This document shows positions 5,996-36,121 of a stretch of DNA of 64,000 nucleotides, in pieces. A model generated the notes under the pieces. That model searched no databases. It worked only from the letters and a program-made list of their open reading frames with translations, and was not told the DNA's origin. The position numbers were made by a program, and so were the translations under genes. This stretch comes from Nitrososphaerota archaeon (GTDB lineage Archaea; Thermoproteota; Nitrososphaeria; Nitrososphaerales; Gagatemarchaeaceae), in NCBI GenBank assembly GCA_029785615.1, contig JAFLZH010000004.1, positions 20,545-84,544 on the forward strand, read 5' to 3'. Every line of letters starts with the position of its first letter. The stretch's first letter is position 1.

Positions 5996-6430
5996 TCAGC
6001 TGCTGACGAGCAACTTCAGCCTGTCAAAATCCTTTACGGAAAAGGTGCCTTCGCAGGCGTAGCAGCCTTCCACCTTGAAGTCGGGCTCAAGGTCGCCGTG
6101 CAGGAGGCACATCATCTTGTTGAACCTGATGTAGTCGAGGACCTCGGTCATCGACCGGAGCGCCTCTCTGGTGTCGGGATGGTCCAAGGAGAGCTCCTTG
6201 GCTATCTTGTCCGCGGCCTTCGTCACGGTCGGGTCGCCCTCGAGGTTGACCATGACCCCCCTCGTCTTTCTCGCGTAGTTACTCACTGAGGCCTGGGTGA
6301 CCCCGAGGCGCTTCGCGACCTCCTGCTGGGTGAGACGGTACTCCTCCTGCAGCCTTCTCGCCACCATGGCCCTCAGGGCGGGGAGGGCTGACTTCGCGAC
6401 TATCTCATAGGGGCTGATGAGGCGGGTCAT
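5996..6430 (-). CDS. HTH transcriptional regulator with a C-terminal Cys/His cluster
   Basis: HTH segment LTQQEVAKRLGVTQASVSNYARK; C-terminal CLLHGD...CYAC. It heads the lipA-E1-E2-E3-lipB gene string. Confidence 0.6.
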   Translation of the reverse strand: MTRLISPYEIVAKSALPALRAMVARRLQEEYRLTQQEVAKRLGVTQASVSNYARKTRGVMVNLEGDPTVTKAADKIAKELSLDHPDTREALRSMTEVLDYIRFNKMMCLLHGDLEPDFKVEGCYACEGTFSVKDFDRLKLLVSS

Positions 6431-6607: not shown

Positions 6608-9475
6608 GTGCAAGGGCAGAACGTCTTCCAGTTCCTTTCGCCTCCCCTGCTCGCAGCCTTGAAGGAACGGGGATTCGACTCCCCCACCGACCCCCAGGCG
6701 AAGCTCCTCCCCATAGTGATGAAAGGAAAGAATGCGCTCCTCATGGCCCCGACGGGGACTGGGAAGACTGAAGCGGCCCTGCTTCCGATTCTTGACGCCA
6801 TCATCCGCGAGGGCGAGACGAGAGAGAAGGGGACGAAACTGTTGTACATCACCCCGCTCCGAGCTCTCAACAGGGACATGCTCGACAGGATGCAGTGGTG
6901 GTGCAAGCGCTTCGACATCAGGCTGGGAGTGAGGCACGGAGACAGTAGCCAGGCAGAGAGGACCAACCTGAGCCTGGCCCCGCCCGACATACTCATCACG
7001 ACGCCGGAGACCCTCCAGATCATGCTCGTGGGGAGGAGGATCAGGCAGAACCTGGCGAAGCTGAGGTGGGTGGTGGTGGACGAGGTGCACGAGCTCTCGG
7101 AGGACAAGAGAGGGAGCCAACTGAGCGTCGGGCTCGAGAGGCTGAGGGACGTGGCAGAGAAGGAGTTCCAGGTAGTCGGTCTGTCGGCCACCGTCGGCTC
7201 CCCGGAGAAGGTCGCTCAGTTCCTAGTGGGGAACGGGAGAGAATGCGAGGTGGTGCGCGTCCCGGTTGAGAAGAGCCTGTCGCTGAAGGTGGTGGCCCCC
7301 AGGGCGACGGGGGACGACAGGATCCTCGCCGATGCCATATACTCCTACCCCGAAGTCGCGGCCAGGCTCAGGACCGTCAGGGAGCTGGTGGAGAAATACA
7401 GGTCAGTCCTCATTTTCACGAACACGCGGTCGGAGGCCGAGGCGCTGTCGAGTCGATTCAGGGTGTGGGATCCAGGATTCGCCATAGCGGTCCACCACAG
7501 CTCGCTGTCCAAGGCGACCAGGGAAGCCGTCGAGAGGAGCCTCAAGGATGGGAAGCTGCTCGGAGTAATATGCACGAGCAGCCTCGAGCTCGGCATAGAC
7601 ATAGGGTTCCTTGAGTATGTGATTCAGTACAACTCCCCGAGGCAGGTGACCAGGCTGATTCAGAGGGTAGGACGCAGCGGGCACAGGGTGGGTGAGGTCT
7701 CCAATGGGCTGGTGATCACCCAGGACTCTGACGACACGCTGGAAGCCGCCGTGCTCTGCAGGAAGGCGGTGATGGGCGAGCTGGAACCCCTCGAGCCGAT
7801 CTTCAACCCCTACGACGTGGCCATACACCAGGTCGCCGGGCTGCTCATCGAGCAGGGGAACTGGAACTTCGACGACCTGGTGGCCTTCTTCAAGAGGAGC
7901 TATGCCTATGCGGAACTCGACGGGGAGAGGATGAAGAAGGTGCTCACCTACATGCGGGAGCGCTATCCCCGCCTGGCCTACTACAGTGAATCGGACGGGA
8001 AGGTCTTCCGCGCCAGGGACGTCAAGCCGCTGTTCCAGTACTACTTCGACAACCTCTCGATGATTCCGGACGAGAAGCAGTACCTGGTCATCGAAGGGGA
8101 CACGTTCGTCGGCACCTTGGACGAGGCGTTCGTGTCGGAGTACGGGGAGGTCGGTGTCAAGTTCGTGGAGGCGGGGAGGTGCTGGAAGGTAGAGCAGATC
8201 TACGGGAACAAGGTATACGTGAGGTCAGAGGATGATCCGACGGGTGCAGTCCCCCACTGGGTGGGAGATGAGATACCTGTCCCGATGGAGGTCGCGGCAG
8301 AGGTAGGGTCCGTACGAAGGAGGTACGCCGAGGAGTTGGAGAAGGGTGGAGAGGCTGAATACCTGGACGAGCTGGCCAGGACTTACCCGGCCTCCAAGGA
8401 CGCCCTCCAGGAATCCTTGAAGGAGGTCGCGGAGCAGCAGGCTGCGAAGCTCCCCATACCCTCAGAGAGGCTTGTGACCATCGAGAAGTGGGACAAGTAC
8501 CTGGTCATACAGGCGGCCTTCGGGCACAGGGTGAACAGGCTGCTGGCCAGGGTCCTCGGTCACCTCATTTCCGAACGGATAGGGCAGTCGGTAGCCGTCC
8601 ACCAGGACCCTTACCGGATTGTGATCGAGGCCGAGGTGACGCCCGCCGTCGTCCTTTCGGTGGTCGAGGAGCTCCACAAGCTCGACCTGAAGGCAGCGAC
8701 TGAGAAAGCCGTAGAGAGGAGCGGGATCTTCAAGCGGCGCCTCATCCACGCGGGCAAGAAGTGCGGCGCCATAGCCAAGGACGCAGACTACGCAAGTGTC
8801 TCCATCGCCGGGATCATCGAAGCCCTCAGGGACACCCCCGTCTACGAAGAGGCGATGAGCATGATTTTCCACGACGACTTCGACCTCTCGGCGGCTGCCG
8901 ACGTGATCGAGAAGATTAACGCAGGCGCGATTGACGTGAAGCTGGTAGAGTACGAGGGGCTCACCCCCATCGCCAGAATCGGGGTGGAGGAGATCAGCAG
9001 ACGTGGAGAGATAGTCTCACCAGAGCGGTTGAGGGCCCTCCTGAAGCAGTCGACCAGGGCAAGGGTCAACGAGACGTTCCTCGTGGCGGTCTGCACCAGC
9101 TGCTGGAACTTCCTGGAGCTTAGAAAGGTCGCAGACCTAGAGGGGCTCGAGAGCTGCCCCGCGTGCGGGAAGCCTAGGTTGGGGCTCTCGACCGACTCTT
9201 ATGAGAACGTCTTCTCGCTGGCCATGAAGGCCAGGAGCAGGGCGGCTCTTACCGGAGCCAAGCTGAAGGTGGTCGAGGCGCTCAGAAAGTCGTCGGAGCT
9301 GAGGAAGGAGTACGGTCACGCCGCTGACATGATCCTGGCCGGGAGGGGGATAAGGCTGGCAGAAGCTGCAGCGCTGGCCGCGAAGATGAGGAAGGAAGGG
9401 ACGGATGTCGTTGAACTCATCATCGAAGGAGAGAGGGAGGCGCTGCGCAGGCGCTACTTCTTCGCCGCTTCCTGA
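6608..9475 (+). CDS. Lhr-type superfamily-2 DNA helicase (paralog 1) with a C-terminal zinc ribbon
   Basis: Walker A APTGTGKTEAALLPIL, DEVH box VVVDEVHEL, SAT, QRVGRSGHR motif VI and a late CTSCWN...CPACG ribbon. About 950 aa, typical of archaeal Lhr. Confidence 0.85.
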   Translation: MQGQNVFQFLSPPLLAALKERGFDSPTDPQAKLLPIVMKGKNALLMAPTGTGKTEAALLPILDAIIREGETREKGTKLLYITPLRALNRDMLDRMQWWCKRFDIRLGVRHGDSSQAERTNLSLAPPDILITTPETLQIMLVGRRIRQNLAKLRWVVVDEVHELSEDKRGSQLSVGLERLRDVAEKEFQVVGLSATVGSPEKVAQFLVGNGRECEVVRVPVEKSLSLKVVAPRATGDDRILADAIYSYPEVAARLRTVRELVEKYRSVLIFTNTRSEAEALSSRFRVWDPGFAIAVHHSSLSKATREAVERSLKDGKLLGVICTSSLELGIDIGFLEYVIQYNSPRQVTRLIQRVGRSGHRVGEVSNGLVITQDSDDTLEAAVLCRKAVMGELEPLEPIFNPYDVAIHQVAGLLIEQGNWNFDDLVAFFKRSYAYAELDGERMKKVLTYMRERYPRLAYYSESDGKVFRARDVKPLFQYYFDNLSMIPDEKQYLVIEGDTFVGTLDEAFVSEYGEVGVKFVEAGRCWKVEQIYGNKVYVRSEDDPTGAVPHWVGDEIPVPMEVAAEVGSVRRRYAEELEKGGEAEYLDELARTYPASKDALQESLKEVAEQQAAKLPIPSERLVTIEKWDKYLVIQAAFGHRVNRLLARVLGHLISERIGQSVAVHQDPYRIVIEAEVTPAVVLSVVEELHKLDLKAATEKAVERSGIFKRRLIHAGKKCGAIAKDADYASVSIAGIIEALRDTPVYEEAMSMIFHDDFDLSAAADVIEKINAGAIDVKLVEYEGLTPIARIGVEEISRRGEIVSPERLRALLKQSTRARVNETFLVAVCTSCWNFLELRKVADLEGLESCPACGKPRLGLSTDSYENVFSLAMKARSRAALTGAKLKVVEALRKSSELRKEYGHAADMILAGRGIRLAEAAALAAKMRKEGTDVVELIIEGEREALRRRYFFAAS

Positions 9476-10017
9476 GCGCGCGACAGTATCAGCGTCATGA
9501 GAGTCTTCTCGTCCACCTCCGCTCTGGTCCTCCAGCCTATGTGCACCATGGTCCGTTCGTCCTGCTCTAGGTAGCCGCGCTTCACGTACCGGTCGAGCGA
9601 GTAGTCGATCCTCCACCTGGGGAACTTCTCCCTGAGGAACTGCTCGACCTCGCGCCTGGCGACACGGCCGGTCTTGGAGTTGACGAAGGCGATGGTTGCC
9701 GCGAGGACAGCCAGGTCGTCTATCCTGATGCCCGACGTTTCCGCCTCCGTGACGGTAGGAGGCTCCTTGAACCTCAGGAGGAAGCGGGATGAATCGTCGG
9801 TCCCGTCGACGCCCTTCACCTCGAACACCTCGAGGCCCATGGGTGCGACGTCTTCTGAGAGGACTCCGATGATCTTGCGGTAGTCCCTCCCCAGGTACCG
9901 CTTCATCTCCCACCCCTTGACGCCGGGGTTACGCCCACGCTGGAGGACTAAGACCTGGAAGGCCCGCCTGACCTTCCTCTCCAGAAGCGCCCTGTCAGCG
10001 GTGTCCGACTCCATCAA
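9454..10017 (-). CDS. KITE-family tandem winged-helix protein (ScpB / Nse3-MAGE-like), SMC-kleisin partner
   Basis: 187 aa with two WH-like halves: VLVLQRGRNPGVKGWEMKRYL...GLEVFEVKG...RFLLRF and LAVLAATIAFVNSKTGRVARREVEQFL...YVKRGYLEQD...IGWRTRAEV. The start overlaps the stop of the kleisin-like gene by 4 nt. Confidence 0.6.
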   Translation of the reverse strand: MMESDTADRALLERKVRRAFQVLVLQRGRNPGVKGWEMKRYLGRDYRKIIGVLSEDVAPMGLEVFEVKGVDGTDDSSRFLLRFKEPPTVTEAETSGIRIDDLAVLAATIAFVNSKTGRVARREVEQFLREKFPRWRIDYSLDRYVKRGYLEQDERTMVHIGWRTRAEVDEKTLMTLILSRAQEAAKK

Positions 10018-10772
10018 TTCTCACCCGTTATCGATATCGCGACAGACTTCGGAGTCCCCTTCGTCTTCTCGGCCAGGGCCATGGTCCAGATTCTTCCCGT
10101 GAGAGGCTCGGTCTTCAGGAGGGCCCTCCCTTCGCTGATGAGGAACGCGAGGAGGTATGCCCTCCTGACCTTCATCTCGAAGCTTTCGACCCCGATGAAC
10201 TGGCGGTAGTCGACCCAGTCTCCGTTGGACTCCCTCAGGAGCTCTTCGTACAACTGGGTCAGTTCGACCTCGAACTCCTCCCTGGTGAAGACGCCGGTGC
10301 TGACCAGGTCGGCGTAATCGACCGTCCCCGGCCTGACTCCGTAGTTCCCGAACTGGTCTTTGAACCTCTCAGAGAGCGGGATTAGCTCGCGCCAGTAGAC
10401 GAAGGCCTTCTCCAGCCCCCTGGGAGACAGCTGGTCCACCTGGGCTATCGGGTGCCAGCTCCTGACGAACGCCTCGGTGAGGGCTTCCTTGGAGAGGAGC
10501 TTCACCTTGAGCTGGATGAGAAGAGGGTCGATGAAGAGAGCCGAAGCTCTCGACTTCAGCCACTGGTCCTGAAGCTTCACTATCTGCGCCAGCTCGAGCA
10601 TCGCCTCCGAGTCCACCAACAGTTCGTCCAGGAGCTTGAGCTCCGGGAGCCTCTGCTTCAACAGCAGTATCTTCTCCCTTATGTCCACGTCGAAGGGGTT
10701 CGCGCTGCTGGTCTCGACGTCGCGGCATAGCTCTATCACCCTGAGGTAGTCGTCGAGCTTGGTCTGTTCCAA
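10014..10772 (-). CDS. Kleisin-like protein (ScpA / Nse4-like)
   Basis: 252 aa. N-terminal helical segment (NPFDVDIREKILLLKQRL...EAMLELAQIVKLQDQWLKSRASAL) and a C-terminal WH-like segment (VRRAYLLAFLISEGRALLKTEPLTGRIW) resemble ScpA termini. It lies 4 nt downstream of the SMC-like gene. Confidence 0.6.
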   Translation of the reverse strand: MEQTKLDDYLRVIELCRDVETSSANPFDVDIREKILLLKQRLPELKLLDELLVDSEAMLELAQIVKLQDQWLKSRASALFIDPLLIQLKVKLLSKEALTEAFVRSWHPIAQVDQLSPRGLEKAFVYWRELIPLSERFKDQFGNYGVRPGTVDYADLVSTGVFTREEFEVELTQLYEELLRESNGDWVDYRQFIGVESFEMKVRRAYLLAFLISEGRALLKTEPLTGRIWTMALAEKTKGTPKSVAISITGEN

Positions 10773-10776
10773 GAAG

Positions 10777-12783
10777 TTACTTCAGCTCCTTGACCTCGGA
10801 CGAGCCGTGGACCGCCTGGACCGTGATGACGTGGGCGCTCCTGTCGAACACCGTCAGTATCGACGGGGTGATTACGATGTATTGTGAGGCCTCCCTCTGC
10901 TTCATCTGCGACAGAATCATCTTGAACATCGCTTCCCTGTTCTTGGGGTCCATATGTATGTCGAACTCGTCCATCGCCCTCAGGGGGGAGACTATCCTCG
11001 CCTGGAGGGACAGGATGAAAGCCATCAGGGCCACCGACCGCTCCCCGCCGCTCTGGGTGAACGGATCGAGGGTGGTGGGGGCGCCCCCCCTGAACCCGAC
11101 GTATAGGTCGAGGCCGGCGTCTTCGATGGTGTCAGCCTGCTCGAACTTTATGAAGCCGCTGGCGTCCGTTGCGGACAGGACCGCCTGATAGGATGGATCC
11201 ACAGTTTCAACCAGATCTTCCATGGCTTTCCTCCAGATGCCCTTACGCGAGTCCAGCTCCGAGAGCATGGACTTCTTGTTCTCCTGGAGCATTGCGAGCT
11301 TCGCCTTCAGCTCTTCGATGTTGCCAGAGTAGTCGTTGTAGATTTTCTCCGCGTCGTCGGGCACGTCCTGCATCTTTTGGATGTGGGCGGACACAAGCTT
11401 CAGCTCCTCTGAGACTTCATAGGGCTGGCGCGCTGTCTCCATCCTGCCCCCCGCCCTTTCGAGGTCCGGAGCCAGTTTGTCCAGCTCCGCTTTGTACTCT
11501 CTAGCAGTCCTCTCGAGGTCGTGGAGGTCAGACTCCGTCACTCTGATGCGGTACGAGAGTACCTCAGCCTTGACTTTGAAGGACACGTAGCTGTCGGTAG
11601 CGCGCCTGATGAGGTCCTCGGTCTTGGTGATGTCAGGCTGCAGGGAAGAGACTTCTCTGTCCAGCTCCGTCTTGCGGCGCTGGGCATCCTCTTCGGCCGA
11701 TAGGCTCTTTTGCTCGATGTACGCGGCGAGCTCCTTGAGCCTCTTCGCGCTCCTGTCCCCCCCTTTTGACAGGAGCTCGTCAATCGTGGTTGACAGCCCT
11801 GAGAGGTCGTCCTTTATCGACCGGTAGGCGTCGCGAGCCGACTCGTCCTTCGCCTTCTCCGACTCCGCCCGCACGAGGGCATAGTAGAGCTTGCGCAGTT
11901 CCACCTGCTTGTCCAGGAGCGTCTGGTGGGTCTGCTCGGCGTCGGAAGAGACCTCGGTCTGCTGCGACTTCAGGTCTTCAAGGGCCTTCGTCTTCGAAGC
12001 AATCTTCTCCTCGGCGCCCTGTAGTGCCTTGCTGAGCTTGTTCTCAGTGCTCCACAGAAGCTCCTTGGTCAGGAGGTCTCTGTGTTCGATTTGCCTCCGC
12101 TTCTCCTGGTAGCGGTCGTACACCTGCTTCCAGTATTCGAGGGCCTGGTTGGCGTTGTCTATGAGTTGGAGGAGGGAGCTCTCCTCTCCCACCAGTCCGC
12201 CCAGCTCCTGCTCGGCCAACGTGATCCTCTGCCTGTACTCGGAGAACCCGACCGCCTCTTCGACCATCCTCAGGCGCTCCTGGGGGGTGACGGCGCCCAG
12301 CTCCTCTATCATCCCCTGGTGCATGATGATGAGCAGGTTGTCTGGGTTGATGCCGAACTCGCTGAGGAGCCTCACGACCTCGCTCTTGTCTATCTCCTTG
12401 TAGTCCGCCTCGAACCAGTACGAACCGTCGCGCCTCAGGTACCTGCTGAGCATGAAGGTGTCCGACTTCGAGTAGGGAATCGGCCTCCGCCCCGCCTTCT
12501 GGGAGTTGTCGAAGATGAGAGAAACCCGGGCGATGTCTTTACCGCGCCTGATGAGGTCTGAGAGCTTCCTTGACCTTTCGGTGTACGCCTGCCCGAACGC
12601 TACGGAAATGGCGAGGAGGACCGAGGACTTGCCGGCCCCGTTGGGACCGACTACCAGGTTCAAGCCCTCGCGGAGGGGTATCCGGGCATACTCGTAACTC
12701 ATGAAATTCTCCAGGATGATCTCCTTTACTGTGGTAAGATGAGACGGCCTCTCCTGGGAGACCTCTCTGACGCCTCGGGACAA
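10777..12783 (-). CDS. Short SMC-family ATPase with Smc5/Smc6-like head motifs, no hinge and no zinc hook
   Basis: N-head ILENFMSY...LNLVVGPNGAGKSSVLLAI; C-head signature QSGGERSVALMAFILSLQARIVSPLRAMDEFDIHMDPKNRE...QYIVITPSIL. About 350 aa of heptad-like coiled coil lies between the heads. The protein is 668 aa with zero cysteines. Confidence 0.8.
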   Translation of the reverse strand: MSRGVREVSQERPSHLTTVKEIILENFMSYEYARIPLREGLNLVVGPNGAGKSSVLLAISVAFGQAYTERSRKLSDLIRRGKDIARVSLIFDNSQKAGRRPIPYSKSDTFMLSRYLRRDGSYWFEADYKEIDKSEVVRLLSEFGINPDNLLIIMHQGMIEELGAVTPQERLRMVEEAVGFSEYRQRITLAEQELGGLVGEESSLLQLIDNANQALEYWKQVYDRYQEKRRQIEHRDLLTKELLWSTENKLSKALQGAEEKIASKTKALEDLKSQQTEVSSDAEQTHQTLLDKQVELRKLYYALVRAESEKAKDESARDAYRSIKDDLSGLSTTIDELLSKGGDRSAKRLKELAAYIEQKSLSAEEDAQRRKTELDREVSSLQPDITKTEDLIRRATDSYVSFKVKAEVLSYRIRVTESDLHDLERTAREYKAELDKLAPDLERAGGRMETARQPYEVSEELKLVSAHIQKMQDVPDDAEKIYNDYSGNIEELKAKLAMLQENKKSMLSELDSRKGIWRKAMEDLVETVDPSYQAVLSATDASGFIKFEQADTIEDAGLDLYVGFRGGAPTTLDPFTQSGGERSVALMAFILSLQARIVSPLRAMDEFDIHMDPKNREAMFKMILSQMKQREASQYIVITPSILTVFDRSAHVITVQAVHGSSEVKELK

Positions 12784-12900
12784 GCTTCGAGCCTGCGCGG
12801 GCCCCGGGCGCTTTTAGACATTGCCCCCCGGGAGGCCGGAATACAGTTTCACCGACCCCTCTCTCGTGACACCTTAAATCGGGTGGCGGTCCTCTCACCG

Positions 12901-15747
12901 TTGTTGTCTGCTCGGACCGCGTTCGAAGCTCTCGCTCCAGCCGTGAGGGGGTTCCTGGCAGACACGGGGATGGTTGAGCCCACGCCCCCCCAGATCGAGG
13001 CATGGCCCCTCGTCTCTCGAGGGGGAGACGTCCTCGTGGTAGCCCCCACAGGTTCCGGGAAGACCGAAGCCGCAATGCTTCCGCTGCTGAGCAGGCTGTT
13101 GTCTGAAGGTCACGGGGACGGGATTTCGCTGCTGTACATCACCCCCATGCGAGCCCTGAACCGCGACATGCTGAAGCGGTTACAAGCCTGGTGCGCCAGG
13201 CTAGGGCTCACGGTCGACGTCAGGCATGGGGACACCCCCCAGTCCCAGAGGTCGAAGCAGTCGACGCACCCCCCTGACGTCTTGGTAACCACCCCGGAGA
13301 CATTGCAGGCGATACTCCCGGGCCGGAGGATGAGGGACAACTTGTCGCACCTGAAGGCAGTGGTAGTGGATGAGCTCCACAACCTGGTAGAGAGCAAGCG
13401 AGGGGTGCAGCTCTGCGTAGGGCTGGAGCGGCTCCGGAAGGTGGCTCCCGACTTCCAGCTGGTCGCGCTCTCCGCCACCGTCGGGACTCCAGCGGTGGCG
13501 GCCAAATTCCTCTTCGGAAACCGGAGCGTTAAGATCGTGAAGGCTGATGCGCCCAAGGAATTCGCCTTCGCCATCGAGTACCCGGTCCCCGACCCAGCGA
13601 GCCAGTCAGCCGCCAAGGAGACATACTCGGCGCCCGACCTGGCGGCCAGGCTCACCCGGATCAACGCCCTGATCGACGGCCACACTTCGACCCTCATCTT
13701 CGTCAACAGCAGGACCCTCGCCGAGATGCTTGGAGAGAAGCTGGCCAGGCTCAGGAAGGACGTCGGGGTCCATCACGGGTCGCTGCCCAGGGAGGAGCGA
13801 GAGCGGGTGGAGCAGGCGTTCAAGGCCGGAGAGCTGAAGGCTCTGGTCTGCACCAGCACCCTGGAGCTGGGCATCGATGTGGGGTCTGTGGACCTGGTGG
13901 TCCAGTACATGTCACCAAGGCAGGTCACAAGCCTCGTGCAGCGCGTCGGCAGGAGCGGCCACAGGCTCGGGAGGGTCTCCAAGGGCGTCCTCGTCACGGT
14001 CTCGGCGGATGACATCATGGAGTCCACCGCCAGCATCCGCTCGGCCGCCCAGAAGAGGATCGAGCCCACCAGGCCATACTCGAACTCCCTGGACGTGCTT
14101 GCCCACCAGGTCGCAGGGTACCTCATGGACTTCGAGACGATGGAGGCAAGTAGGATGCTGGCGGAGGTGAGGAAAGCAGCCCCGTTCGAGGGCCTCCAAG
14201 ACGACGCATTCCTCAGAACCGTGGGCTATCTCGCAGAGCTCCGGAAGCTCAGATTCGACGGCACGACGCTGTCCAGGACCAGACTGACTAGGGAGTACTA
14301 CTACGAGAACCTGTCGATGATCCCCGACGAGACCAGATACCTTGTCGTGGACGTGTCCACCAACCAGACCGTGGGCATACTGGGCGAGGAGTTCGTCCTT
14401 CTGAAGGCGAAGGTCGGCATACACTTCGTGATCAAGGGGCGGGTGTGGCAGGTGGAACAGATAGCCGAGGACAGGAAGATCTATGTGACCCCCGTTGAAG
14501 ACCCGCTCGCCGCCGTCCCCGGGTGGGACGGCGAGATGCTGCCGATTCCATACGAGCTCGCCGTGGAGACCGGCAGCCTGAGAAGGGAGGTCTCAGACGC
14601 GCTGGACGCGGGTCAAGACGCGGTCGAGAGGGTCGAGGGGCACATCCCCGGGGACACGGCTGCGCGGGCCCTCGTTGTGGACCAGATCGCCGAGCAGAAG
14701 AAGATGGGAGCGTCGGTCCCATCGGATAGGCTGGTCCTCTTCGAAGGTTTCGGCCGGTACCTGATCGTCCATCTCTGCTTCGGGGAGTCGGTCAACAGGA
14801 CGTTCGCCTATGTGTTCGAAGAGATCCTGTCTAGGCGGGGACTGGTGAGAGTCTGGTGGCTCGACGGATACAGGCTTCTGATGGAGCTCACCACGGAGAC
14901 TGGGGAGCTGGACCTTGAGGCGATTGCCACGGAGCTGATGCGCCTGACCCCCGAGGAGCTCGAGAGGACCTATGCGGTCGCCGCCCAGAGGAACTTCCCC
15001 TTCCCTGCTCGAGTGAAGTTCGTGGCCGAGAGGTTCGGAGCGCTGAAGCGGGGCAAATTGATTGCCCACCCCAACCTCTGCTCCCTCCCTACCCGCTTCG
15101 AAAAGACCCCCATCTTCGAGGAGGCCCTGCAGGAGACCGGGAGGGACCTGATTGACATGGGTCACTCGAAGGAGATTCTCATGGCGGTGGCCGGCGGCAA
15201 GATAGCGGTTGAGACCTTCCAAGCGGGTGAGAGGCCCACCCCCATCGCCTACAGTCTCCTCTATCGGTACCTCGAGGTTCCCGAGGCCGTTGCCCCCGAC
15301 TCACTGGGGAAGTCGTCCTACCAGAGGCTGAAGGCGACCATATTCGGGACCGAGGTGAGCCTCCTTTGCGTGAAGTGTGGCTCGGACCAAGGCCAGACCA
15401 CAGTGGGCGAAGTTCCTGAGGAGCCCCGGTGCGGAAGCTGCGGGTCAGGGCTCCTGGCTCCATGTTACTGTGGGACGGCCAAGCTCTCCGAACTGATCAA
15501 GAAGAGAGAGGCCAGGACCCAGCTGAACGAAGAGGAGCGCTCTGAGCTTTCGCGGGCCAGGCGGGGGGCCGACCTGGTCCTGTCGTACGGAAGGAAGGCG
15601 GTCGTCGCCCAGACCGTCTATGGCATCGGCCCGCAGACCGCGTCCAGGATCCTAGCCGAGATGCATGATGACGAGGAGGCGTTCTACAGGGACCTGCTCG
15701 AAGCTAAGATTCGGTTCGTCACGACCAGGCAGTACTGGGGGAGCTGA
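12901..15747 (+). CDS. Lhr-type superfamily-2 DNA helicase (paralog 2) with a C-terminal zinc ribbon
   Basis: APTGSGKTEAAMLPLL, VVVDELHNL, SAT, QRVGRSGHR and CVKCG...CGSCG. The frame is open from 12739, but that would overlap the divergent SMC-like gene. An in-frame TTG at 12901 lies about 24 nt after a TTAAAT box (12875-12880). The start is uncertain. Confidence 0.8.
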   Translation: MLSARTAFEALAPAVRGFLADTGMVEPTPPQIEAWPLVSRGGDVLVVAPTGSGKTEAAMLPLLSRLLSEGHGDGISLLYITPMRALNRDMLKRLQAWCARLGLTVDVRHGDTPQSQRSKQSTHPPDVLVTTPETLQAILPGRRMRDNLSHLKAVVVDELHNLVESKRGVQLCVGLERLRKVAPDFQLVALSATVGTPAVAAKFLFGNRSVKIVKADAPKEFAFAIEYPVPDPASQSAAKETYSAPDLAARLTRINALIDGHTSTLIFVNSRTLAEMLGEKLARLRKDVGVHHGSLPREERERVEQAFKAGELKALVCTSTLELGIDVGSVDLVVQYMSPRQVTSLVQRVGRSGHRLGRVSKGVLVTVSADDIMESTASIRSAAQKRIEPTRPYSNSLDVLAHQVAGYLMDFETMEASRMLAEVRKAAPFEGLQDDAFLRTVGYLAELRKLRFDGTTLSRTRLTREYYYENLSMIPDETRYLVVDVSTNQTVGILGEEFVLLKAKVGIHFVIKGRVWQVEQIAEDRKIYVTPVEDPLAAVPGWDGEMLPIPYELAVETGSLRREVSDALDAGQDAVERVEGHIPGDTAARALVVDQIAEQKKMGASVPSDRLVLFEGFGRYLIVHLCFGESVNRTFAYVFEEILSRRGLVRVWWLDGYRLLMELTTETGELDLEAIATELMRLTPEELERTYAVAAQRNFPFPARVKFVAERFGALKRGKLIAHPNLCSLPTRFEKTPIFEEALQETGRDLIDMGHSKEILMAVAGGKIAVETFQAGERPTPIAYSLLYRYLEVPEAVAPDSLGKSSYQRLKATIFGTEVSLLCVKCGSDQGQTTVGEVPEEPRCGSCGSGLLAPCYCGTAKLSELIKKREARTQLNEEERSELSRARRGADLVLSYGRKAVVAQTVYGIGPQTASRILAEMHDDEEAFYRDLLEAKIRFVTTRQYWGS

Positions 15748-15783
15748 AAGCCCAATAACAGGATTCGTGGAGGTCAGGACGGG

Positions 15784-16467
15784 TTGGTGCTAGCAGGCAA
15801 GGTCTTCCTCGTGAGGGAGAACTACGAGATCGACACCCTCGCGGAGAAGTTGAAGTCGTTCAGGATAGAGACGGAGACGAGCGTAGAGGGGAAGGAGTTC
15901 AAGCTCGTGTCAGAGATAACAGACCTGGGGGTCGGCAAGGGGTCACTCGAGGGGAAGTTCTCATTTGACTCCGTCTTCGTGGTCCCCCACAGGGGCGAGT
16001 CGGTCCCGGTCCCCAGGACCTATGAAGCGCCTTTCTCCTTCGGAATGTACAAGGATAGGATGTTCCTCACTGTCTACGACAAGAAAAACCGAGCTAACAA
16101 CATAGCGAACGAGATGAGCAAGGCGGTGTTCATGAGCCTTGGTCAGGTGGTCGAGGCCAGGATCGACCCGGAGACCTTACGGAAGTTCCATGAGGCGAAC
16201 TTCGACGACACCAAGGTGATATTCTATTCGGACGTCGACCTGCCTAACATCACCAAGCTGTCCCTCTATGGCGCTGAACTGGGCAACACGAGCCTCTACA
16301 CCGACTACCTTACTCATGGGAAGCTGTGGTACATCGTCTTCAAGAGCAGGGAGTACGGCTACGTGTTCGGGCTCACGAGGAACTGCATCCTGACGGGGTT
16401 CAGCAAGATGGAGCTGTCGGAGTTCAAGAACTTCGTGGGGAGCCAGGTCCTCCCGCTGATAGCGTAG
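15784..16467 (+). CDS. Hypothetical protein with no recognisable motif, wedged between Lhr paralog 2 and the MPE phosphoesterase
   Basis: 227-aa ORF with genome-typical GC3-rich codons. It starts 36 nt after the helicase stop and ends 1 nt before the next gene. Confidence 0.55.
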   Translation: MVLAGKVFLVRENYEIDTLAEKLKSFRIETETSVEGKEFKLVSEITDLGVGKGSLEGKFSFDSVFVVPHRGESVPVPRTYEAPFSFGMYKDRMFLTVYDKKNRANNIANEMSKAVFMSLGQVVEARIDPETLRKFHEANFDDTKVIFYSDVDLPNITKLSLYGAELGNTSLYTDYLTHGKLWYIVFKSREYGYVFGLTRNCILTGFSKMELSEFKNFVGSQVLPLIA

Positions 16468-16468
16468 C

Positions 16469-17227
16469 TTGCTGAAGATAGTCCCCGGAGAAGCCGCGCT
16501 AGTGTTCTCTACGGCCGAGAGCAAGACCCTGCTGATATCCGACCTGCACCTCGGCCTGGAGAAGGAGATGGCGAAGAAAGGCTTCCGCCTACCCGCCTAC
16601 TCGGTGAGGATGGTTGAGAGGGTGAAGCGGGCTGCTGAGGAGTATTCGACAACAAGGCTGGTCGTGTTGGGAGACGTCAAGCACACGGTCGGCAAGGTGG
16701 AGGACATAGACTGGGGGGCGGTCCCGTGGTTCTTCGACACCATGCTGGACCTCTTCGAGGTCGTGGAGGTCGTCCCGGGGAACCACGACGGGAACATCAA
16801 GACGGTCCTCCCCCCGCGCGTGAAACTGGACAGGTCTCAGGGGACCACCTTGGGCGAGGGGCGGAAGCAGATCGGGGTTGCCCACGGGCATGCCTGGCCC
16901 TCGGAGGAAGCCATTGCGACGAGGAACCTCGTCATAGGCCACTCCCACTTCACCTACGAGATGCGTGACGGCATGGGCGCCAGGACGAGGGAGTCGGTGT
17001 GGGTGACCGCTGACTACGACGTCGCCAAGCTGATGGAGGGGGCAGGGTACCCCTCCAAGCTCCGGGGGAAGGGTAGGCTGACGGTGATGCCCCCCTTCAA
17101 CAGGCTGGTCGGCGGACAGCCTATCAACAGGAGCAGGTCGTTCGAGTTCGGGCCCGTCCTATCCTCGAGGTCGATAAGCCTCGAAGAGGCAGACATATTC
17201 CTGACAGATGGGACCAGGGTGACCTAG
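16469..17227 (+). CDS. Calcineurin-like metallophosphoesterase (MPE/PdeM-like, Lhr-associated type)
   Basis: Metal-ligand motifs ISDLHLG, VVLGDVKH, VPGNHDG, VAHGHAWP and VIGHSHF. Confidence 0.8.
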   Translation: MLKIVPGEAALVFSTAESKTLLISDLHLGLEKEMAKKGFRLPAYSVRMVERVKRAAEEYSTTRLVVLGDVKHTVGKVEDIDWGAVPWFFDTMLDLFEVVEVVPGNHDGNIKTVLPPRVKLDRSQGTTLGEGRKQIGVAHGHAWPSEEAIATRNLVIGHSHFTYEMRDGMGARTRESVWVTADYDVAKLMEGAGYPSKLRGKGRLTVMPPFNRLVGGQPINRSRSFEFGPVLSSRSISLEEADIFLTDGTRVT

Positions 17228-20582: not shown

Positions 20583-20673
20583 TGGGCCGGGGCGGATTCG
20601 AACCACCGACCCTGGCGCGCGGAGCGTTTCGCCGTGTAAGGGCGACGTCCTAACCATGCTAGACGACCGGCCC
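20583..20673 (-). tRNA. tRNA-Val (anticodon UAC) with an insertion of about 16 nt between the anticodon arm and the T arm
   Basis: Minus-strand read: GGGCCGG TC GTCT AGCATGGTTA GGAC G TCGCC CTTACAC GGCGA [AACGCTCCGCGCGCCA] GGGTC GGTGG TTCGAAT CCGCC CCGGCCC A. All four stems pair. The extra block sits in a non-canonical intron position. Confidence 0.8.
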
Positions 20674-22293: not shown

Positions 22294-22612
22294 GGCGGTA
22301 GATCCCCCGGAGCTCACCATCACTCTCCGCCCCCATCTCGTCGGGCCAGGGATCCCCCACGTAGACGAGGCAGCGTGGCCACGTCGCCATAGGGCTGCTC
22401 CCTCCCGGATCTCGCCCGGTTCGGCAATCAAGAGTCAGGCCCTCTCCTTCGAGAGGGCTGCCCCTCATGACCGCCCACCCCGGCGTGAGTTCGTCTCCCC
22501 AGCCCGGCGCGGGTGACGGGGAAGATGGCTTTACCCGAGGGTTGCTGGCCGCTGCATGAAGCCGGTTTCAGCACTCTGGGATACGGCTACCATCCCGGCC
22601 CTACCCACCGCC
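22294..22612 (-). ncRNA. ffs: Signal recognition particle 7S RNA
   Basis: The minus strand starts GGCGGTGGGTAGGGCC... and ends ...GGGGGATCTACCGCC, so the 5' and 3' ends pair. It contains the archaeal helix-8 signature GCCGAACCGGGCGAGATCCGGGAGGGAGCAGCCCTATGGCGACGTGGCC. Length is about 319 nt. Confidence 0.85.
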
Positions 22613-35384: not shown

Positions 35385-35665
35385 GAAATTACGAAGTCCG
35401 ACGCCGTAAACCCGGACTTAAATGTTCTGTAGGATATCTTCAATGAAAACTGGGATTTTTAGAAGAAGGCGCCGGCACCTCGGCTTCCCGACTCCTCTCG
35501 GAAGTCAGTAGCACCGGGGCGACGCGCGGTTTGACTGCCAGGATCGGAACGAGTCTGGGTCGGACCCACGCGCTATGGCCGGCTGAAGTGAGGGGTCCCG
35601 CCGCGGTAGATTAACGTTTCCTGGCCCACCAAGCGTTTTTTACATGATTTGAAGCATGCGGGGGG

Positions 35666-35990: not shown

Positions 35991-36121
35991 GGGGGTATAG
36001 CCCAGCCAGGCAGGGCGACAGGCTCCAGTGACACCAATGGCTGACACGGAAACGTGGATGACTTGACATTGGAGCTGCCTAAGAAACCTGTAGACCGTCG
36101 GTTCAAATCCGACTACCCCCA
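35991..36121 (+). tRNA. tRNA-Trp (anticodon CCA) with a 57-nt intron at the canonical 37/38 position
   Basis: GGGGGTA TA GCCC AGCCAGGCA GGGC G ACAGG CTCCAG[intron 36029-36085]A CCTGT AGACC GTCGG TTCAAAT CCGAC TACCCCC A. Confidence 0.9.

What the first reader, a model, noticed from the sequence alone, without database searches (positions are those of the whole stretch)
6608..17227. Seven-gene DNA-maintenance island: Smc5/6-like SMC, kleisin and KITE operon bracketed by two Lhr helicases and followed by an orphan ORF and an MPE nuclease
**What the sequence shows**
- A three-gene minus-strand operon runs SMC-like (10777-12783), kleisin-like (10014-10772), KITE-like (9454-10017), with junctions of 4 nt or less or overlapping.
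- Lhr paralog 1 converges on its 3' end with a 22-nt overlap.
- Lhr paralog 2 diverges from its 5' end across a spacer of about 117 nt that holds two TATA-like boxes.
- Lhr paralog 2 is followed at tight spacing by a 227-aa orphan and a metallophosphoesterase.

**Established knowledge**
- SMC-kleisin-KITE is the architecture of Smc-ScpAB, MukBEF/Wadjet and eukaryotic Smc5/6-Nse1/3/4.
- Bacterial Lhr-core genes are often paired with an MPE nuclease in damage-response clusters.

**Inference**
- One locus combining a miniature Smc5/6-like complex with duplicated Lhr translocases and a nuclease could be a dedicated repair module or an extrachromosomal-DNA restriction module. I do not recognise this combination as a described system.
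Basis: partly seen in the sequence, partly recalled or inferred. Interest (0 to 1): 0.88.

Follow-up and report, generated by a model that had tools for sequence, protein, structure and literature searches.

The report
Archaeal Smc5/6-like operon with repair partners
A soil archaeon (Nitrososphaerota) has an operon for a miniature relative of the eukaryotic Smc5/6 complex, sitting beside two Lhr helicases, a nuclease and an unannotated protein with the fold of bacterial RdgC. The Smc5/6-like trio is already described, but the recurring linkage to these repair-type partners does not appear in the papers I could search.

Summary

**Identities**
- **SMC (668 aa).** Its closest solved-structure relatives are yeast Smc5 and Smc6. 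Outside its own archaeal family, its closest relatives among 1.84 billion proteins are eukaryotic Smc5. It has no hinge; its coiled-coil arm is about 20 nm.
- **Kleisin.** At family-profile level it is Nse4-like.
- **KITE.** Weakly Nse3/Nse1-like.
- **Helicases.** Both are aLhr1-type Lhr, 36% identical to each other.
- **Nuclease.** A COG1407/PdeM-like metallophosphoesterase with intact motifs.
- **"Orphan".** A confident model (pLDDT 86) shows an RdgC fold.

**What is already known**
- SMC5/6-related SMC-kleisin-kite operons in TACK archaea are published, and the tables include Nitrososphaerales entries.
- Lhr-MPE pairing is also published.

**What looks new: the linkage**
- In 120 unbiased metagenome loci, Lhr and the RdgC-like gene are the neighbours that recur across most SMC lineages (10 and 9; next best 3).
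- Seven of eight contexts found by searching with the RdgC-like protein lie beside a short-SMC operon.
- The linkage is facultative, at about 20-25% of evaluable loci. The double-Lhr layout was seen only in copies of the window's own locus.

**Best reading:** a chromosomal repair and recombination-control module, not a mobile island.

The parts
6608..9475 (+). Lhr paralog 1, an aLhr1-type SF2 helicase. The longest ORF is 955 aa; public gene calls give 938-955 aa. It converges on the KITE gene with a 22-nt 3' overlap.
   Evidence: Pfam DEAD 3.5e-38, Helicase_C, WH_Lhr 2.5e-13, DEAD_assoc 1.4e-31. NCBIfam PRK13767 518 bits, below the 849 cut-off. A C-terminal CxxC...CxxC motif is visible in the translation and is the aLhr1 hallmark according to PMC8301817. 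An Lhr in this same convergent, abutting position occurs in 8 of 57 evaluable metagenome loci and in Thermofilales locus L007.
9454..10017 (-). KITE-like subunit (187 aa), last gene of the SMC operon. Weakly Nse3/Nse1 (MAGE)-like.
   Evidence: No direct Pfam, NCBIfam, PADLOC or PDB hit. Family profile A7 versus PDB: the top hit is the Xenopus Nse3 MAGE-domain protein 7dg2_C, E=0.047. Pfam MAGE hits 6/29 family members (best 0.0065) and SMC_Nse1 hits 3/29. The AF2 model is poor (pLDDT 52), but its secondary structure is two H-H-H-beta-beta units, consistent with tandem winged helices. Foldseek is not significant; ScpB is among the top hits at E 0.4. This gene follows the kleisin gene in 81/81 evaluable loci.
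10014..10772 (-). Nse4-like kleisin (252 aa), middle gene of the operon.
   Evidence: The window protein alone has no hit. Family profile A6 versus PDB: yeast Nse4 4.1e-6, human NSMCE4/EID3 6.7e-6, ScpA only 0.045. Pfam Nse4_C hits 26/39 family members, best 7.2e-9. This gene follows SMC in 91/98 evaluable loci.
10777..12783 (-). Short, hinge-less SMC5/6-related SMC ATPase (668 aa), first gene of the operon.
   Evidence: Pfam SMC_N 8.7e-36, no SMC_hinge. PDB: yeast Smc5 1.1e-29, Smc6 3.5e-22, prokaryotic Smc 6e-19. A 1.84-billion-protein search finds about 60 clusters of 550-685 aa at 33-45% identity. Every named hit among the next-best full-length proteins that I looked up is eukaryotic, and those with a functional name are Smc5. 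JGI names relatives 'structural maintenance of chromosomes protein 5'. Walker A GPNGAGKS, Q-loop MHQG, signature QSGGERS and Walker B MDEFDIHMD are all intact. The inter-head region is 310 aa with a Pro/Gly cluster at its midpoint and no Cys.
12784..12903 (.). Divergent 120-nt promoter spacer between SMC and Lhr2, with two TATA-like boxes.
   Evidence: Sequence read. The boxes are at 12810-12819 and 12873-12879, each 25-27 nt from its start codon. The equivalent SMC|RdgC-like spacer is only 31 bp in loci L208 and L213.
12904..15747 (+). Lhr paralog 2, also aLhr1-type (947 aa by public gene calls). First gene of the Lhr2 / RdgC-like / MPE operon.
   Evidence: Pfam DEAD 3.6e-38, Helicase_C, WH_Lhr, DEAD_assoc 2.4e-17. 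It is 36% identical to Lhr1 over the full length, including the C-terminal CxxC...CxxC motif. Lhr-ORPH-MPE runs in the same order in L157, L210 and L211.
15784..16467 (+). The 'orphan': a 227-aa RdgC-fold protein from a conserved, unannotated archaeal family.
   Evidence: No Pfam, NCBIfam, PADLOC or PDB sequence hit, even with a profile. The family has 407 clusters, all labelled 'hypothetical protein'. AF2 with 121 sequences gives pLDDT 85.9 and pTM 0.81. Foldseek against PDB: E. coli RdgC 2owl_A, E=9.9e-7, prob 1.0, TMq 0.56; the next hits are TBP-like at E about 2e-3 and TM 0.25. Foldseek against the viral library: phage RdgC proteins at E 3e-7 to 3e-6 and a top hit at 5.6e-8, TMq 0.65. Seven of eight homologue-anchored contexts lie next to a short-SMC operon.
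16469..17227 (+). COG1407/TIGR00024-type metallophosphoesterase (252 aa), the archaeal counterpart of the Lhr-associated MPE/PdeM nuclease.
   Evidence: NCBIfam TIGR00024 SbcD_rel_arch 4.7e-23 (82 bits, cut-off 115) and PdeM TIGR04123 1.1e-15. Pfam Metallophos 0.001. Motifs DLH, GDVKH, GNHD, GHAW and GHSH are all present in the translation. No PDB sequence hit. It is adjacent to the RdgC-like gene in L157, L205, L210-L212 and L215.

Best explanation
The region is a conserved chromosomal gene cluster of a Nitrososphaerota archaeon.

**Core.** The core is a three-gene operon for a minimal Smc5/6-type complex:
- a hinge-less SMC with arms of about 20 nm, presumably a homodimer;
- an Nse4-like kleisin that would bridge the two heads;
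- an Nse1/3-like KITE, presumably a dimer sitting on the kleisin.

**Accessory genes.** Wired to this operon by overlapping 3' ends and by a shared divergent promoter are:
- two aLhr1-type 3'-5' helicases;
- a COG1407/PdeM-type Mn-dependent nuclease;
- an unannotated protein with the RdgC fold. In bacteria, RdgC is a ring-shaped DNA-binding dimer that restrains RecA.

**Proposed mechanism (inferred).**
1. The SMC-kleisin-KITE clamp binds abnormal chromosomal DNA in an ATP-dependent way: stalled or reversed forks and recombination intermediates.
2. Lhr unwinds or remodels the branched DNA.
3. The MPE trims single-stranded flaps.
4. The RdgC-like ring holds DNA and limits RadA filament activity.

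This would be an archaeal counterpart of the anti-recombinogenic, helicase-regulating role of eukaryotic Smc5/6.

**Shown:** gene identities, operon geometry, and recurrent linkage across lineages.

**Inferred:** physical interaction, substrates, and the order of events.
For: **Component identities:**

**Tight geometry**
- Overlapping or 1-4-nt junctions.
- A 120-nt divergent spacer with two TATA-like boxes.
- Only 31 bp between the SMC and RdgC-like start codons in Syntropharchaeia-like loci.

**Unbiased neighbour analysis**
- I took 120 metagenome loci retrieved with an SMC Walker-B motif that excludes the window's own clade.
- Of 133 neighbour families within two genes of the operon, Lhr recurs in 10 SMC lineages (70% identity clusters) and the RdgC-like protein in 9.
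- The next family recurs in 3, and the annotated remainder are housekeeping genes: TFB, MoeA, NusA-KH.

**Reverse test**
- Eight RdgC-like homologues at 49-63% identity were chosen without regard to context.
- Seven sit beside a short SMC-kleisin-KITE operon. One of these is a Ca. Syntropharchaeia MAG, a different phylum.
- The eighth follows an Lhr.

**Alternative gene orders keep the same parts together**
- SMC-KLE-KITE-Lhr-RdgC-like-MPE all co-directional in L157, L210, L211.
- Lhr< KITE-KLE-SMC <> RdgC-like-MPE in L212, L214, L215.

**Chromosomal context**
- Flanks are housekeeping and GC is normal.
- L215 additionally carries Exo_endo_phos and AP-endonuclease genes nearby.

**Established knowledge**
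- Eukaryotic Smc5/6 acts in recombination-intermediate control.
- Lhr and MPE are DNA-damage-response enzymes (PMC8301817, PMC7826289).
- RdgC modulates RecA (citations within PMC11390915).
Against: - The linkage is facultative. Lhr is downstream in only 11/57 evaluable loci and the RdgC-like gene is upstream in 14/58. In 18 of 31 loci with both flanks readable, neither is adjacent.
- Lhr-MPE pairing exists without any SMC in many archaea and bacteria, so the two units can work independently.
- No protein-protein, expression or phenotype data exist.
- KITE assignment is weak (E=0.047; AF2 pLDDT 52).
- The RdgC similarity is fold-level only: 8-9% identity, TM 0.56, and the protein is about 75 residues shorter than RdgC.
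- Lineage counts rest on single-linkage clusters of partly fragmentary SMC sequences.
Confidence: 0.5

Rival explanations
1. Two independent units that often sit side by side. The SMC-kleisin-KITE operon would act in chromosome organisation or segregation. Lhr / RdgC-like / MPE would be a separate repair operon. Adjacency would reflect shared regulation, gene-order inertia or co-transfer rather than a joint machine.
For: Lhr-MPE association is known on its own in archaea and bacteria. Most short-SMC loci lack Lhr or the RdgC-like gene nearby. L217 has Lhr followed by the RdgC-like gene with no SMC within 5 kb. Long-armed Bathyarchaeota relatives are solitary genes.
Against: Seven of eight RdgC-like contexts abut the SMC operon. 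Some of these have no Lhr or MPE within 8-10 kb (L208, L213, L216), so the RdgC-like gene tracks the SMC rather than Lhr-MPE. The linkage persists through rearrangements and across two phyla. No other neighbour family recurs comparably.
Confidence: 0.25
2. An extrachromosomal-DNA restriction or antiviral module. It would be analogous to Wadjet (JetABCD), to Lamassu (short-armed LmuB plus a nuclease effector), or to human SMC5/6 silencing of episomes. The short SMC complex would sense plasmid or viral DNA, and Lhr and MPE would degrade it.
For: The arm length of about 20 nm matches what is reported for Lamassu LmuB (PMC12663957). The PADLOC LmuB model aligns over the full length (62 bits), and the Lhr genes hit the BrxHI, SngC and DpdJ models. 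A nuclease and a helicase are attached to an SMC-kleisin-KITE core, as in Wadjet. RdgC-fold proteins are common in phages.
Against: No PADLOC model for JetA, JetB, JetD, LmuA or LmuC hits any of the seven proteins. The SMC scores far higher to Smc5 and SMC models than to LmuB. The locus has normal GC and housekeeping flanks. On the 6 public contig places shown that carry the identical SMC, gene order is the same, with no integrase, tRNA border or other defence genes. The BrxHI-type hits reflect generic Lhr homology.
Confidence: 0.15
3. The short SMC trio is simply this lineage's only condensin (a divergent Smc-ScpAB), and the Smc5/6 resemblance is a long-branch or compositional artefact.
For: The top NCBIfam hit is TIGR02169 SMC_prok_A (172 bits); NCBIfam is a bacterial/archaeal annotation library, and no Smc5/6 model appeared among the hits shown. 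ScpA appears among the weak kleisin hits, E 0.045. ScpB appears among the non-significant fold hits.
Against: Smc5 and Smc6 outrank every prokaryotic Smc in the PDB search. All named nearest outgroup proteins in the 1.84-billion search are eukaryotic, and those with a functional name are Smc5. Nse4 and Nse4_C outrank ScpA by about four orders of magnitude. van Hooff Table S3 lists ScpB-like kites, and in UBA183 a condensin-type kleisin, in the same Nitrososphaerales families that have Nse4/Nse1,3-related proteins. I could not search this MAG itself for a canonical smc.
Confidence: 0.05

Closest known systems
SMC5/6-related archaeal SMC complexes. Sources: Yoshinaga & Inagaki 2021, 'SMC5/6-related aSMC'; van Hooff et al. 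2024/25 preprint, SMC5/6-related SMC + Nse4-related kleisin + Nse1,3-related kite operons in TACK/Asgard archaea.
   Same: The SMC is nearest to Smc5/Smc6. The kleisin is Nse4_C-like and the KITE is MAGE/Nse1-like. Kleisin and kite are always adjacent. The host lineage is TACK, and their table has Nitrososphaerales entries.
   Different: Here the SMC is only 668 aa with no hinge, and it directly precedes the kleisin in 91/98 loci. Their SMC5/6-related SMC neighbours the kleisin in only 2 of 9 species. The long 1028-1047-aa Bathyarchaeota relatives I checked are solitary. The linkage to Lhr, an RdgC-fold protein and an MPE is not mentioned in their text or supplements.
Eukaryotic Smc5/6-Nse1/3/4 complex
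   Same: Best sequence relatives for the SMC and the kleisin. SMC-kleisin-KITE architecture. A functional theme of DNA repair and recombination-intermediate control, including regulation of an SF2 helicase (Mph1/FANCM; from established knowledge).
   Different: One SMC gene, so a homodimer is inferred rather than an Smc5-Smc6 heterodimer. One KITE gene. No hinge, and arms roughly 40% as long. No Nse2 SUMO ligase, no Nse1 RING and no Nse5/6 identified. The associated helicase is Lhr, not Hef/FANCM.
Lhr-Core / MPE (PdeM) DNA-damage clusters of bacteria, and the aLhr-TIGR00024 phosphoesterase pairing of archaea (PMC7826289; PMC8301817)
   Same: An Lhr helicase is followed by a COG1407/TIGR00024-type metallophosphoesterase with intact metal-binding motifs.
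   Different: No ligase or exonuclease partner is present. An RdgC-fold gene sits between Lhr and MPE. The pair is attached to an SMC operon. The Lhr genes are aLhr1-type with a C-terminal zinc ribbon, and there are two of them.
RdgC (E. coli recombination-associated DNA-binding ring; PDB 2owl)
   Same: The only significant fold match in the PDB (E 1e-6, prob 1.0). Phage RdgC proteins match in the viral library. The genomic company of recombination and repair genes is also shared.
   Different: 8-9% identity and no PF04381 sequence match. About 75 residues shorter. Archaeal, with RadA rather than RecA as the presumed recombinase. Ring dimerisation and DNA binding are untested. It is distinct from the 'RdgC-like' protein of the haloarchaeal RdgC-histone operons, which sits in a different context.
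Lamassu (LmuB) and Wadjet (JetABCD)
   Same: A short-armed SMC-like ATPase (Lamassu), or an SMC-kleisin-KITE plus nuclease layout (Wadjet).
   Different: No hit to the LmuA, LmuC, JetA, JetB or JetD models. The SMC is closer to Smc5/6. The context is chromosomal and housekeeping.

Membership tests
SMC5/6-related archaeal SMC complex | SMC ATPase whose nearest relatives are Smc5/Smc6 rather than canonical Smc | tested here: met
   PDB: Smc5 1.1e-29 and Smc6 3.5e-22, versus prokaryotic Smc 6e-19. The nearest named outgroup proteins in the 1.84-billion search are all eukaryotic, and those with a functional name are Smc5.
SMC5/6-related archaeal SMC complex | Nse4-type kleisin encoded with it | tested here: met
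   Family profile versus PDB: Nse4 4.1e-6, EID3 6.7e-6, ScpA 0.045. Pfam Nse4_C hits 26/39 members. The window protein alone gives no hit.
SMC5/6-related archaeal SMC complex | Nse1/Nse3-like KITE (tandem winged helix) adjacent to the kleisin | tested here: inconclusive
   Adjacency is 81/81. The top PDB profile hit is Nse3 MAGE, but only at E=0.047. Pfam MAGE hits 6/29 and SMC_Nse1 hits 3/29. The AF2 model is too poor (pLDDT 52) and Foldseek is not significant.
Canonical SMC architecture (Smc, Smc1-6) | Globular hinge dimerisation domain between two coiled-coil arms of about 50 nm | tested here: not met
   No SMC_hinge hit. The inter-head region is only 310 aa (208-341 in the family) with a Pro/Gly cluster at its midpoint. 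No structure model was made for the SMC.
Eukaryotic Smc5/6 holo-complex | Heterodimeric Smc5+Smc6, two KITEs (Nse1 with RING, Nse3), Nse2 SUMO ligase, Nse5/6 | tested here: not met
   The operon has a single SMC gene and a single KITE gene. No RING or SUMO-ligase domain appears in any of the seven proteins. Distant Nse5/6 analogues cannot be excluded.
Smc-ScpAB | ScpA kleisin and ScpB KITE | tested here: not met
   No ScpA or ScpB Pfam or NCBIfam hit. ScpA appears only at E 0.045-0.25 in the profile search, below Nse4.
Wadjet / MksBEFG | JetA, JetB, JetC and the JetD Toprim nuclease | tested here: not met
   PADLOC gives only weak coiled-coil hits to JetC (41 bits) and none to JetA, JetB or JetD.
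Lamassu | LmuB with LmuC and an LmuA effector | tested here: not met
   LmuB model 62 bits, which is generic SMC similarity. There is no LmuA or LmuC hit for any neighbour.
Lhr helicases, aLhr1 group | SF2 core + Lhr winged helix + Domain 4 (DEAD_assoc) + C-terminal Cys-rich motif | tested here: met
   All four Pfam domains are present in both proteins. CxxC...CxxC is present in both C-termini. The group definition comes from PMC8301817. NCBIfam equivalog cut-offs are not reached.
Ligase-associated Lhr-Core/PdeM four-gene cluster | Lhr-Core, PdeM/MPE, ATP-dependent ligase and exonuclease together | tested here: not met
   Lhr and MPE are present. TIGR04121 and TIGR04123 score below their cut-offs. 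No ligase or exonuclease lies within 10 kb (gene and Pfam table).
Binuclear metallophosphoesterase (COG1407/TIGR00024) | Motifs DxH, GD, GNH(D/E), H, GHxH | tested here: met
   DLH, GDVKH, GNHD, GHAW and GHSH were read in the translation. TIGR00024 4.7e-23, below the curated cut-off. Nuclease activity is untested.
RdgC | RdgC fold | tested here: met
   Foldseek: 2owl_A E 9.9e-7, prob 1.0, TMq 0.56. Phage RdgC proteins E 3e-7 to 3e-6. The model has pLDDT 85.9.
RdgC | Sequence membership (PF04381), ring-shaped dimer, DNA binding, recombinase inhibition | tested here: not met
   No RdgC Pfam hit in 47 family members and no PDB sequence hit with a profile. Dimerisation and activity cannot be tested with these tools.
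Rad50-Mre11 | Rad50 with a CxxC zinc hook, plus the Mre11 nuclease | tested here: not met
   Rad50 models score 43-66 bits, versus 172 for SMC. There is no Cys in the coiled coil. The MPE matches TIGR00024/PdeM and not Mre11.

The most novel reading that the evidence does not exclude
The short hinge-less SMC, Nse4-like kleisin and Nse1/3-like KITE form a minimal prokaryotic Smc5/6. Its dedicated partners would be an RdgC-fold DNA ring (a new, unannotated archaeal family), aLhr1 helicase(s) and a PdeM-like nuclease.

If so, the ancestral job of the Smc5/6 lineage was repair and control of recombination intermediates in concert with an SF2 helicase. That job would predate eukaryotes. It would also be carried out by an SMC that needs no hinge to work with a kleisin and a KITE.
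Probability: 0.35. Interest if true: 0.8.

Novelty: new variant of a known kind. Interest (0 to 1): 0.62.

Why it matters
Smc5/6 is the least understood eukaryotic SMC complex, and its ancestral function is an open question. The preprint that describes its archaeal relatives explicitly calls for functional study of them.

This cluster offers three things.

1. **A minimal version of the complex.** One SMC, one kleisin and one KITE, with no hinge and arms of about 20 nm. This tests which SMC features are dispensable for working with a kleisin and a KITE.
2. **Function by genomic association.** A helicase, a nuclease and an RdgC-fold protein point to DNA repair and recombination control as the conserved role.
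3. **A first structural assignment for an unannotated family.** The family has about 400 sequence clusters, found in Nitrososphaerota and Syntropharchaeia MAGs and in many unassigned metagenome contigs.

All of this can be tested with recombinant proteins.

Tried and rejected
1. **Genome-contig scan with the SMC family alignment.** The automatically chosen Walker-A pattern flooded the result with bacterial Smc genes. I recovered with a hand-made DNA pattern for the family-specific Walker-B motif DEFDVHMDP on metagenome contigs.
2. **Single-sequence searches.** Pfam, NCBIfam, PADLOC and PDB searches of the kleisin, KITE and orphan gave nothing. Only family profiles built from locus-derived homologues worked.
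3. **AF2 of the KITE.** The permitted alignment (80-93% identity) gave pLDDT 52, and its Foldseek result is not usable.
5. **MPE versus PDB by sequence.** No hit.
6. **Hinge in long relatives.** Pfam SMC_hinge was found only in P0330, not in P0251, P0263, P0294 or P0329. This is uninformative, because Smc5/6 hinges are divergent.
7. **Rejected memberships.** Lamassu, Wadjet, Rad50-Mre11 and Smc-ScpAB were considered and rejected (see Membership tests).
8. **Mobile island.** Considered and rejected on GC content, housekeeping flanks and conserved synteny.
9. **Sigma-70 promoter scanner.** Not used, because it does not apply to archaea.
10. **Canonical smc in this MAG.** I could not query the MAG directly for a canonical smc.
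11. **Literature.** No paper in the library contains Lhr + kleisin + archaea. RdgC + archaea + SMC returned only an unrelated haloarchaeal RdgC-histone operon.

Full report

Yes. Six-frame ORF listing reproduces all seven ORFs at the stated coordinates and strands.

The minus-strand genes are:
- SMC-like, 10777-12783
- kleisin-like, 10014-10772
- KITE-like, 9454-10017

They are separated by a 4-nt gap and a 4-nt overlap. Lhr1 (6608-9475, +) overlaps the 3' end of the KITE gene by 22 nt.

The longest ORF for Lhr2 begins at 12739, inside the SMC gene. Gene calls on identical public contigs give 947 aa, so the start is 12904. That leaves a 120-nt divergent spacer. The spacer contains two A/T-rich TATA-like boxes (12810-12819 and 12873-12879). 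Each ends 25-27 nt before its start codon, the geometry of leaderless archaeal transcripts.

Lhr2 is followed after 36 nt by the 227-aa ORF (15784-16467) and, 1 nt later, by the metallophosphoesterase (16469-17227).

The source is a Nitrososphaerota MAG (GCA_027459145.1). The same SMC protein is on 21 public contigs, and the six places shown all have the same gene order. GC content across the region (0.595-0.626) is the same as in the rest of the window. The flanks are housekeeping genes: lipoyl synthase, 2-oxoacid dehydrogenase, thioredoxin, NUDIX, Nramp, enolase. It is therefore a conserved chromosomal cluster, not an 'island'.

**2. What the parts are**

*SMC.*
- It hits Pfam SMC_N (8.7e-36) and has no hinge hit.
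- Against all PDB sequences, the best matches are yeast Smc5 (1.1e-29) and Smc6 (3.5e-22), ahead of prokaryotic Smc (6e-19) and Rad50 (1e-9).
- An exhaustive HMMER search of 1.84 billion representative proteins found about 60 clusters of 550-685-aa proteins at 33-45% identity. This is the family.
- It also found a few 980-1047-aa Bathyarchaeota versions, followed by proteins of about 1000-1135 aa at 24-29% identity.
- Every hit in that last tier that carries a name is eukaryotic. Those with a functional name are Smc5, from Tieghemostelium, Edaphochlamys, Arcella and Saccharomycopsis.
- JGI annotation of close relatives reads 'structural maintenance of chromosomes protein 5'.
- The ATPase motifs are intact.
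- The stretch between the two head halves is only 310 aa, and 208-341 aa across the family. It is poor in Pro and Gly except for a cluster at its midpoint, and it has no cysteines.
- I read this as a coiled-coil hairpin of roughly 140 residues per arm (about 20 nm), with no globular hinge and no zinc hook. This is an inference from sequence; no model was made.

*Kleisin.*
- The window protein alone hits nothing.
- A profile of 39 diverse family members taken from related loci hits yeast Nse4 (4.1e-6) and human NSMCE4/EID3 (6.7e-6) in the C-terminal winged-helix region. ScpA scores only E 0.045.
- 26 of the 39 members individually hit Pfam Nse4_C, best 7.2e-9.

*KITE.*
- The evidence is weaker.
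- The family profile's top PDB hit is the Xenopus Nse3 MAGE-domain protein, at E=0.047.
- 6/29 members touch Pfam MAGE and 3/29 touch SMC_Nse1.
- The AlphaFold model is poor (pLDDT 52), but its secondary structure is two H-H-H-beta-beta units. Foldseek is not significant.
- Position is decisive in another sense: this gene follows the kleisin in 81/81 evaluable loci.

*Helicases.*
- Both carry DEAD, Helicase_C, WH_Lhr and DEAD_assoc.
- They are 36% identical over their full length and share a C-terminal CxxC...CxxC motif.
- That motif defines the aLhr1 group. Thaumarchaeota were reported to have aLhr1 but not aLhr2 (PMC8301817).

*MPE.*
- It matches TIGR00024 (4.7e-23) and PdeM (1.1e-15), both below the curated cut-offs.
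- All five metallophosphoesterase motifs are present.
- The same paper reports this gene family next to alhr1 or alhr2 in scattered archaea, and next to bacterial Lhr-Core genes in 276 of the 319 genomes examined.

*The 'orphan'.*
- There is no sequence hit in Pfam, NCBIfam, PADLOC or PDB, even with profiles.
- It belongs to a well-conserved family of about 225-245 aa: 407 clusters, all labelled 'hypothetical'.
- With a 121-sequence alignment, AlphaFold gives pLDDT 85.9 and pTM 0.81.
- Foldseek against the PDB gives E. coli RdgC as the only significant match: 2owl_A, E 9.9e-7, probability 1.0, TM 0.56. The next hits are TBP-like folds at E about 2e-3 and TM about 0.25.
- The viral structure library independently returns phage RdgC proteins, at E 3e-7 to 3e-6 with a top hit at 5.6e-8 and TM 0.65.
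- The protein therefore has the RdgC fold. Sequence-level membership, ring formation and DNA binding are not shown.

**3. Is the neighbourhood conserved?**

*SMC-anchored sample.*
- I retrieved 120 metagenome loci with a DNA pattern for the family-specific Walker-B motif DEFDVHMDP. The pattern deliberately excludes the window's own clade, which has Ile at the Val position.
- I annotated their ORFs with the window proteins by phmmer and jackhmmer.
- Results:
  - kleisin follows SMC in 91/98 evaluable loci
  - KITE follows kleisin in 81/81
  - an Lhr lies within 2.5 kb downstream of KITE in 11/57, and in 8 of these it abuts convergently as in the window
  - the RdgC-like gene lies within 3 kb upstream of SMC in 14/58
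  - an Lhr lies directly upstream in 2/58
- At the level of SMC clusters at 70% identity, the figures are 8/21 for downstream Lhr and 9/22 for the RdgC-like gene.

*All neighbours, clustered without prior labels.*
- Clustering every gene within two positions of the operon gave 133 families.
- Lhr recurs in 10 SMC lineages and the RdgC-like protein in 9.
- The next family recurs in 3. The other recurrent families that could be annotated are housekeeping genes such as TFB, MoeA and NusA-KH; several have no family hit.

*Reverse test.*
- I picked eight RdgC-like homologues at 49-63% identity without regard to context.
- Seven lie beside a short SMC (596-683 aa) with kleisin and KITE genes adjacent or, in L213, a few kb away. 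One of these is in a Ca. Syntropharchaeia MAG, a different phylum, where the two start codons are 31 bp apart.
- The eighth directly follows an Lhr.

*Gene order varies but the parts stay together.*
- SMC-KLE-KITE-Lhr-RdgC-like-MPE are co-directional in L157, L210 and L211.
- The layout Lhr< KITE-KLE-SMC <> RdgC-like-MPE occurs in L212, L214 and L215.
- The window combines both patterns, with one Lhr on each side.
- That doubled layout was seen only on contigs carrying the window's own SMC sequence (L001-L004). Close relatives at 87-92% identity were not examined for context.
- The long-armed Bathyarchaeota relatives are solitary genes.

**4. How it most likely works**

*Shown:* a Smc5/6-lineage SMC-kleisin-KITE operon is recurrently, though not universally, wired to aLhr1, an RdgC-fold protein and a PdeM-like MPE. 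This holds across lineages and through rearrangements, in a housekeeping chromosomal context.

*Inferred:* the trio forms an ATP-gated DNA clamp, made of an SMC homodimer closed by the kleisin with a KITE dimer on the kleisin. The clamp acts on abnormal chromosomal DNA. Lhr remodels or unwinds branched DNA, the MPE incises single strands, and the RdgC-like ring binds DNA and restrains the recombinase.

This parallels the established anti-recombinogenic role of eukaryotic Smc5/6 and its control of an SF2 helicase. It also parallels RdgC's restraint of RecA in bacteria. I put 0.5 on this reading.

*Rivals:*
- Two independent units that merely co-localise: 0.25. The linkage is facultative and Lhr-MPE exists elsewhere without an SMC.
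- A Wadjet-, Lamassu- or human-SMC5/6-like restriction module: 0.15. The short arms resemble LmuB, but no Jet or Lmu partner models hit and the context is not defence-like.
- A divergent sole condensin: 0.05. This is contradicted and by Table S3 of van Hooff et al..

**5. Comparison with what is known, and novelty**

- SMC5/6-related archaeal SMCs were defined by Yoshinaga & Inagaki.
- SMC5/6-related SMC + Nse4-like kleisin + Nse1/3-like kite operons in TACK/Asgard archaea are described by van Hooff et al. Their table has Nse4-, Nse1,3- and SMC5,6-related entries in the Nitrososphaerales families UBA141, UBA183, UBA213 and JACAEJ01.
- The core of the finding is therefore already known.
- Lhr-MPE pairing is known too.

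I could not find the following in that preprint, its supplements, or the searchable literature:
- the recurrent linkage of this operon to aLhr1 helicases and the MPE;
- the RdgC-fold identity of the intervening 'hypothetical' family and its tight association with the short SMC;
- the hinge-less, short-armed nature of the SMC that sits in the tight operon.

I rate the finding a new variant of a known kind, with interest 0.62.

**6. Caveats**

- Lineage counts use single-linkage clusters of partly fragmentary SMC sequences.
- The ORF calls in metagenome loci are mechanical.
- Taxonomy is known for only a few loci.
- No SMC or multimer structure could be computed.
- All functional statements beyond gene identity and linkage are inference.

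Noticed in passing
window 53077-60501 (-): A 2474-aa ORF with Ig_3, SprB, PKD and Ig_7 repeats, i.e. a giant surface or adhesin-like protein. It coincides with the strongest GC skew in the window (+0.18 to +0.23).
   Followed up: partly
window 5996-6430 (-): A 144-aa helix-turn-helix protein (HTH_ParB 6.4e-6, HTH_3) is transcribed divergently from Lhr1. It holds the same position in L001-L004. It is a possible regulator of the cluster.
   Followed up: partly
window 22296-22610 (-), 35467-35586 (-), 35991-36121 (+), 52224-52511 (+), 20583-20673 (-): SRP RNA, a 5S rRNA with no 16S or 23S nearby, a 131-nt tRNA seen by Rfam but missed by ARAGORN (probably intron-bearing), RNase P RNA, and a 91-nt tRNA-Val.
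   Followed up: no
L119:221-1363 (+) and 18 other metagenome loci: A 370-380-aa ORF family with no Pfam or NCBIfam hit abuts the 3' end of the KITE gene convergently. This is the same geometry that Lhr has elsewhere. It is seen in 19 loci but only 3 SMC lineages, and could be another accessory gene or a spurious antisense ORF.
   Followed up: partly
L218:8001-11087 and L219:8001-11144 (Bathyarchaeota): Long-armed relatives (1028-1047 aa) of the short SMC, at 35-40% identity, are solitary genes with no kleisin, KITE, Lhr or RdgC-like neighbour. The short form may be a derived, operon-bound subfamily.
   Followed up: partly
L208:9970-10000 and L213:9970-10000: In the Syntropharchaeia MAG (L208) and in a second, taxonomically unassigned locus with the same layout (L213), the RdgC-like and SMC start codons are only 31 bp apart, with back-to-back A/T-rich boxes. 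In L213 the kleisin and KITE genes lie about 4.5 kb away on the other strand.
   Followed up: partly
L215:8024-9999: An Exo_endo_phos nuclease and an AP-endonuclease-2 gene lie just beyond the RdgC-like/MPE pair in one related locus. This fits a repair neighbourhood.
   Followed up: no
L163, L166, L195, L203 (metagenome loci): Seven of 98 evaluable short-SMC genes are not followed by a recognisable kleisin. L195 and L203 still have the RdgC-like gene upstream. Either the partners are too diverged to detect, or this is a kleisin-less subgroup.
   Followed up: no
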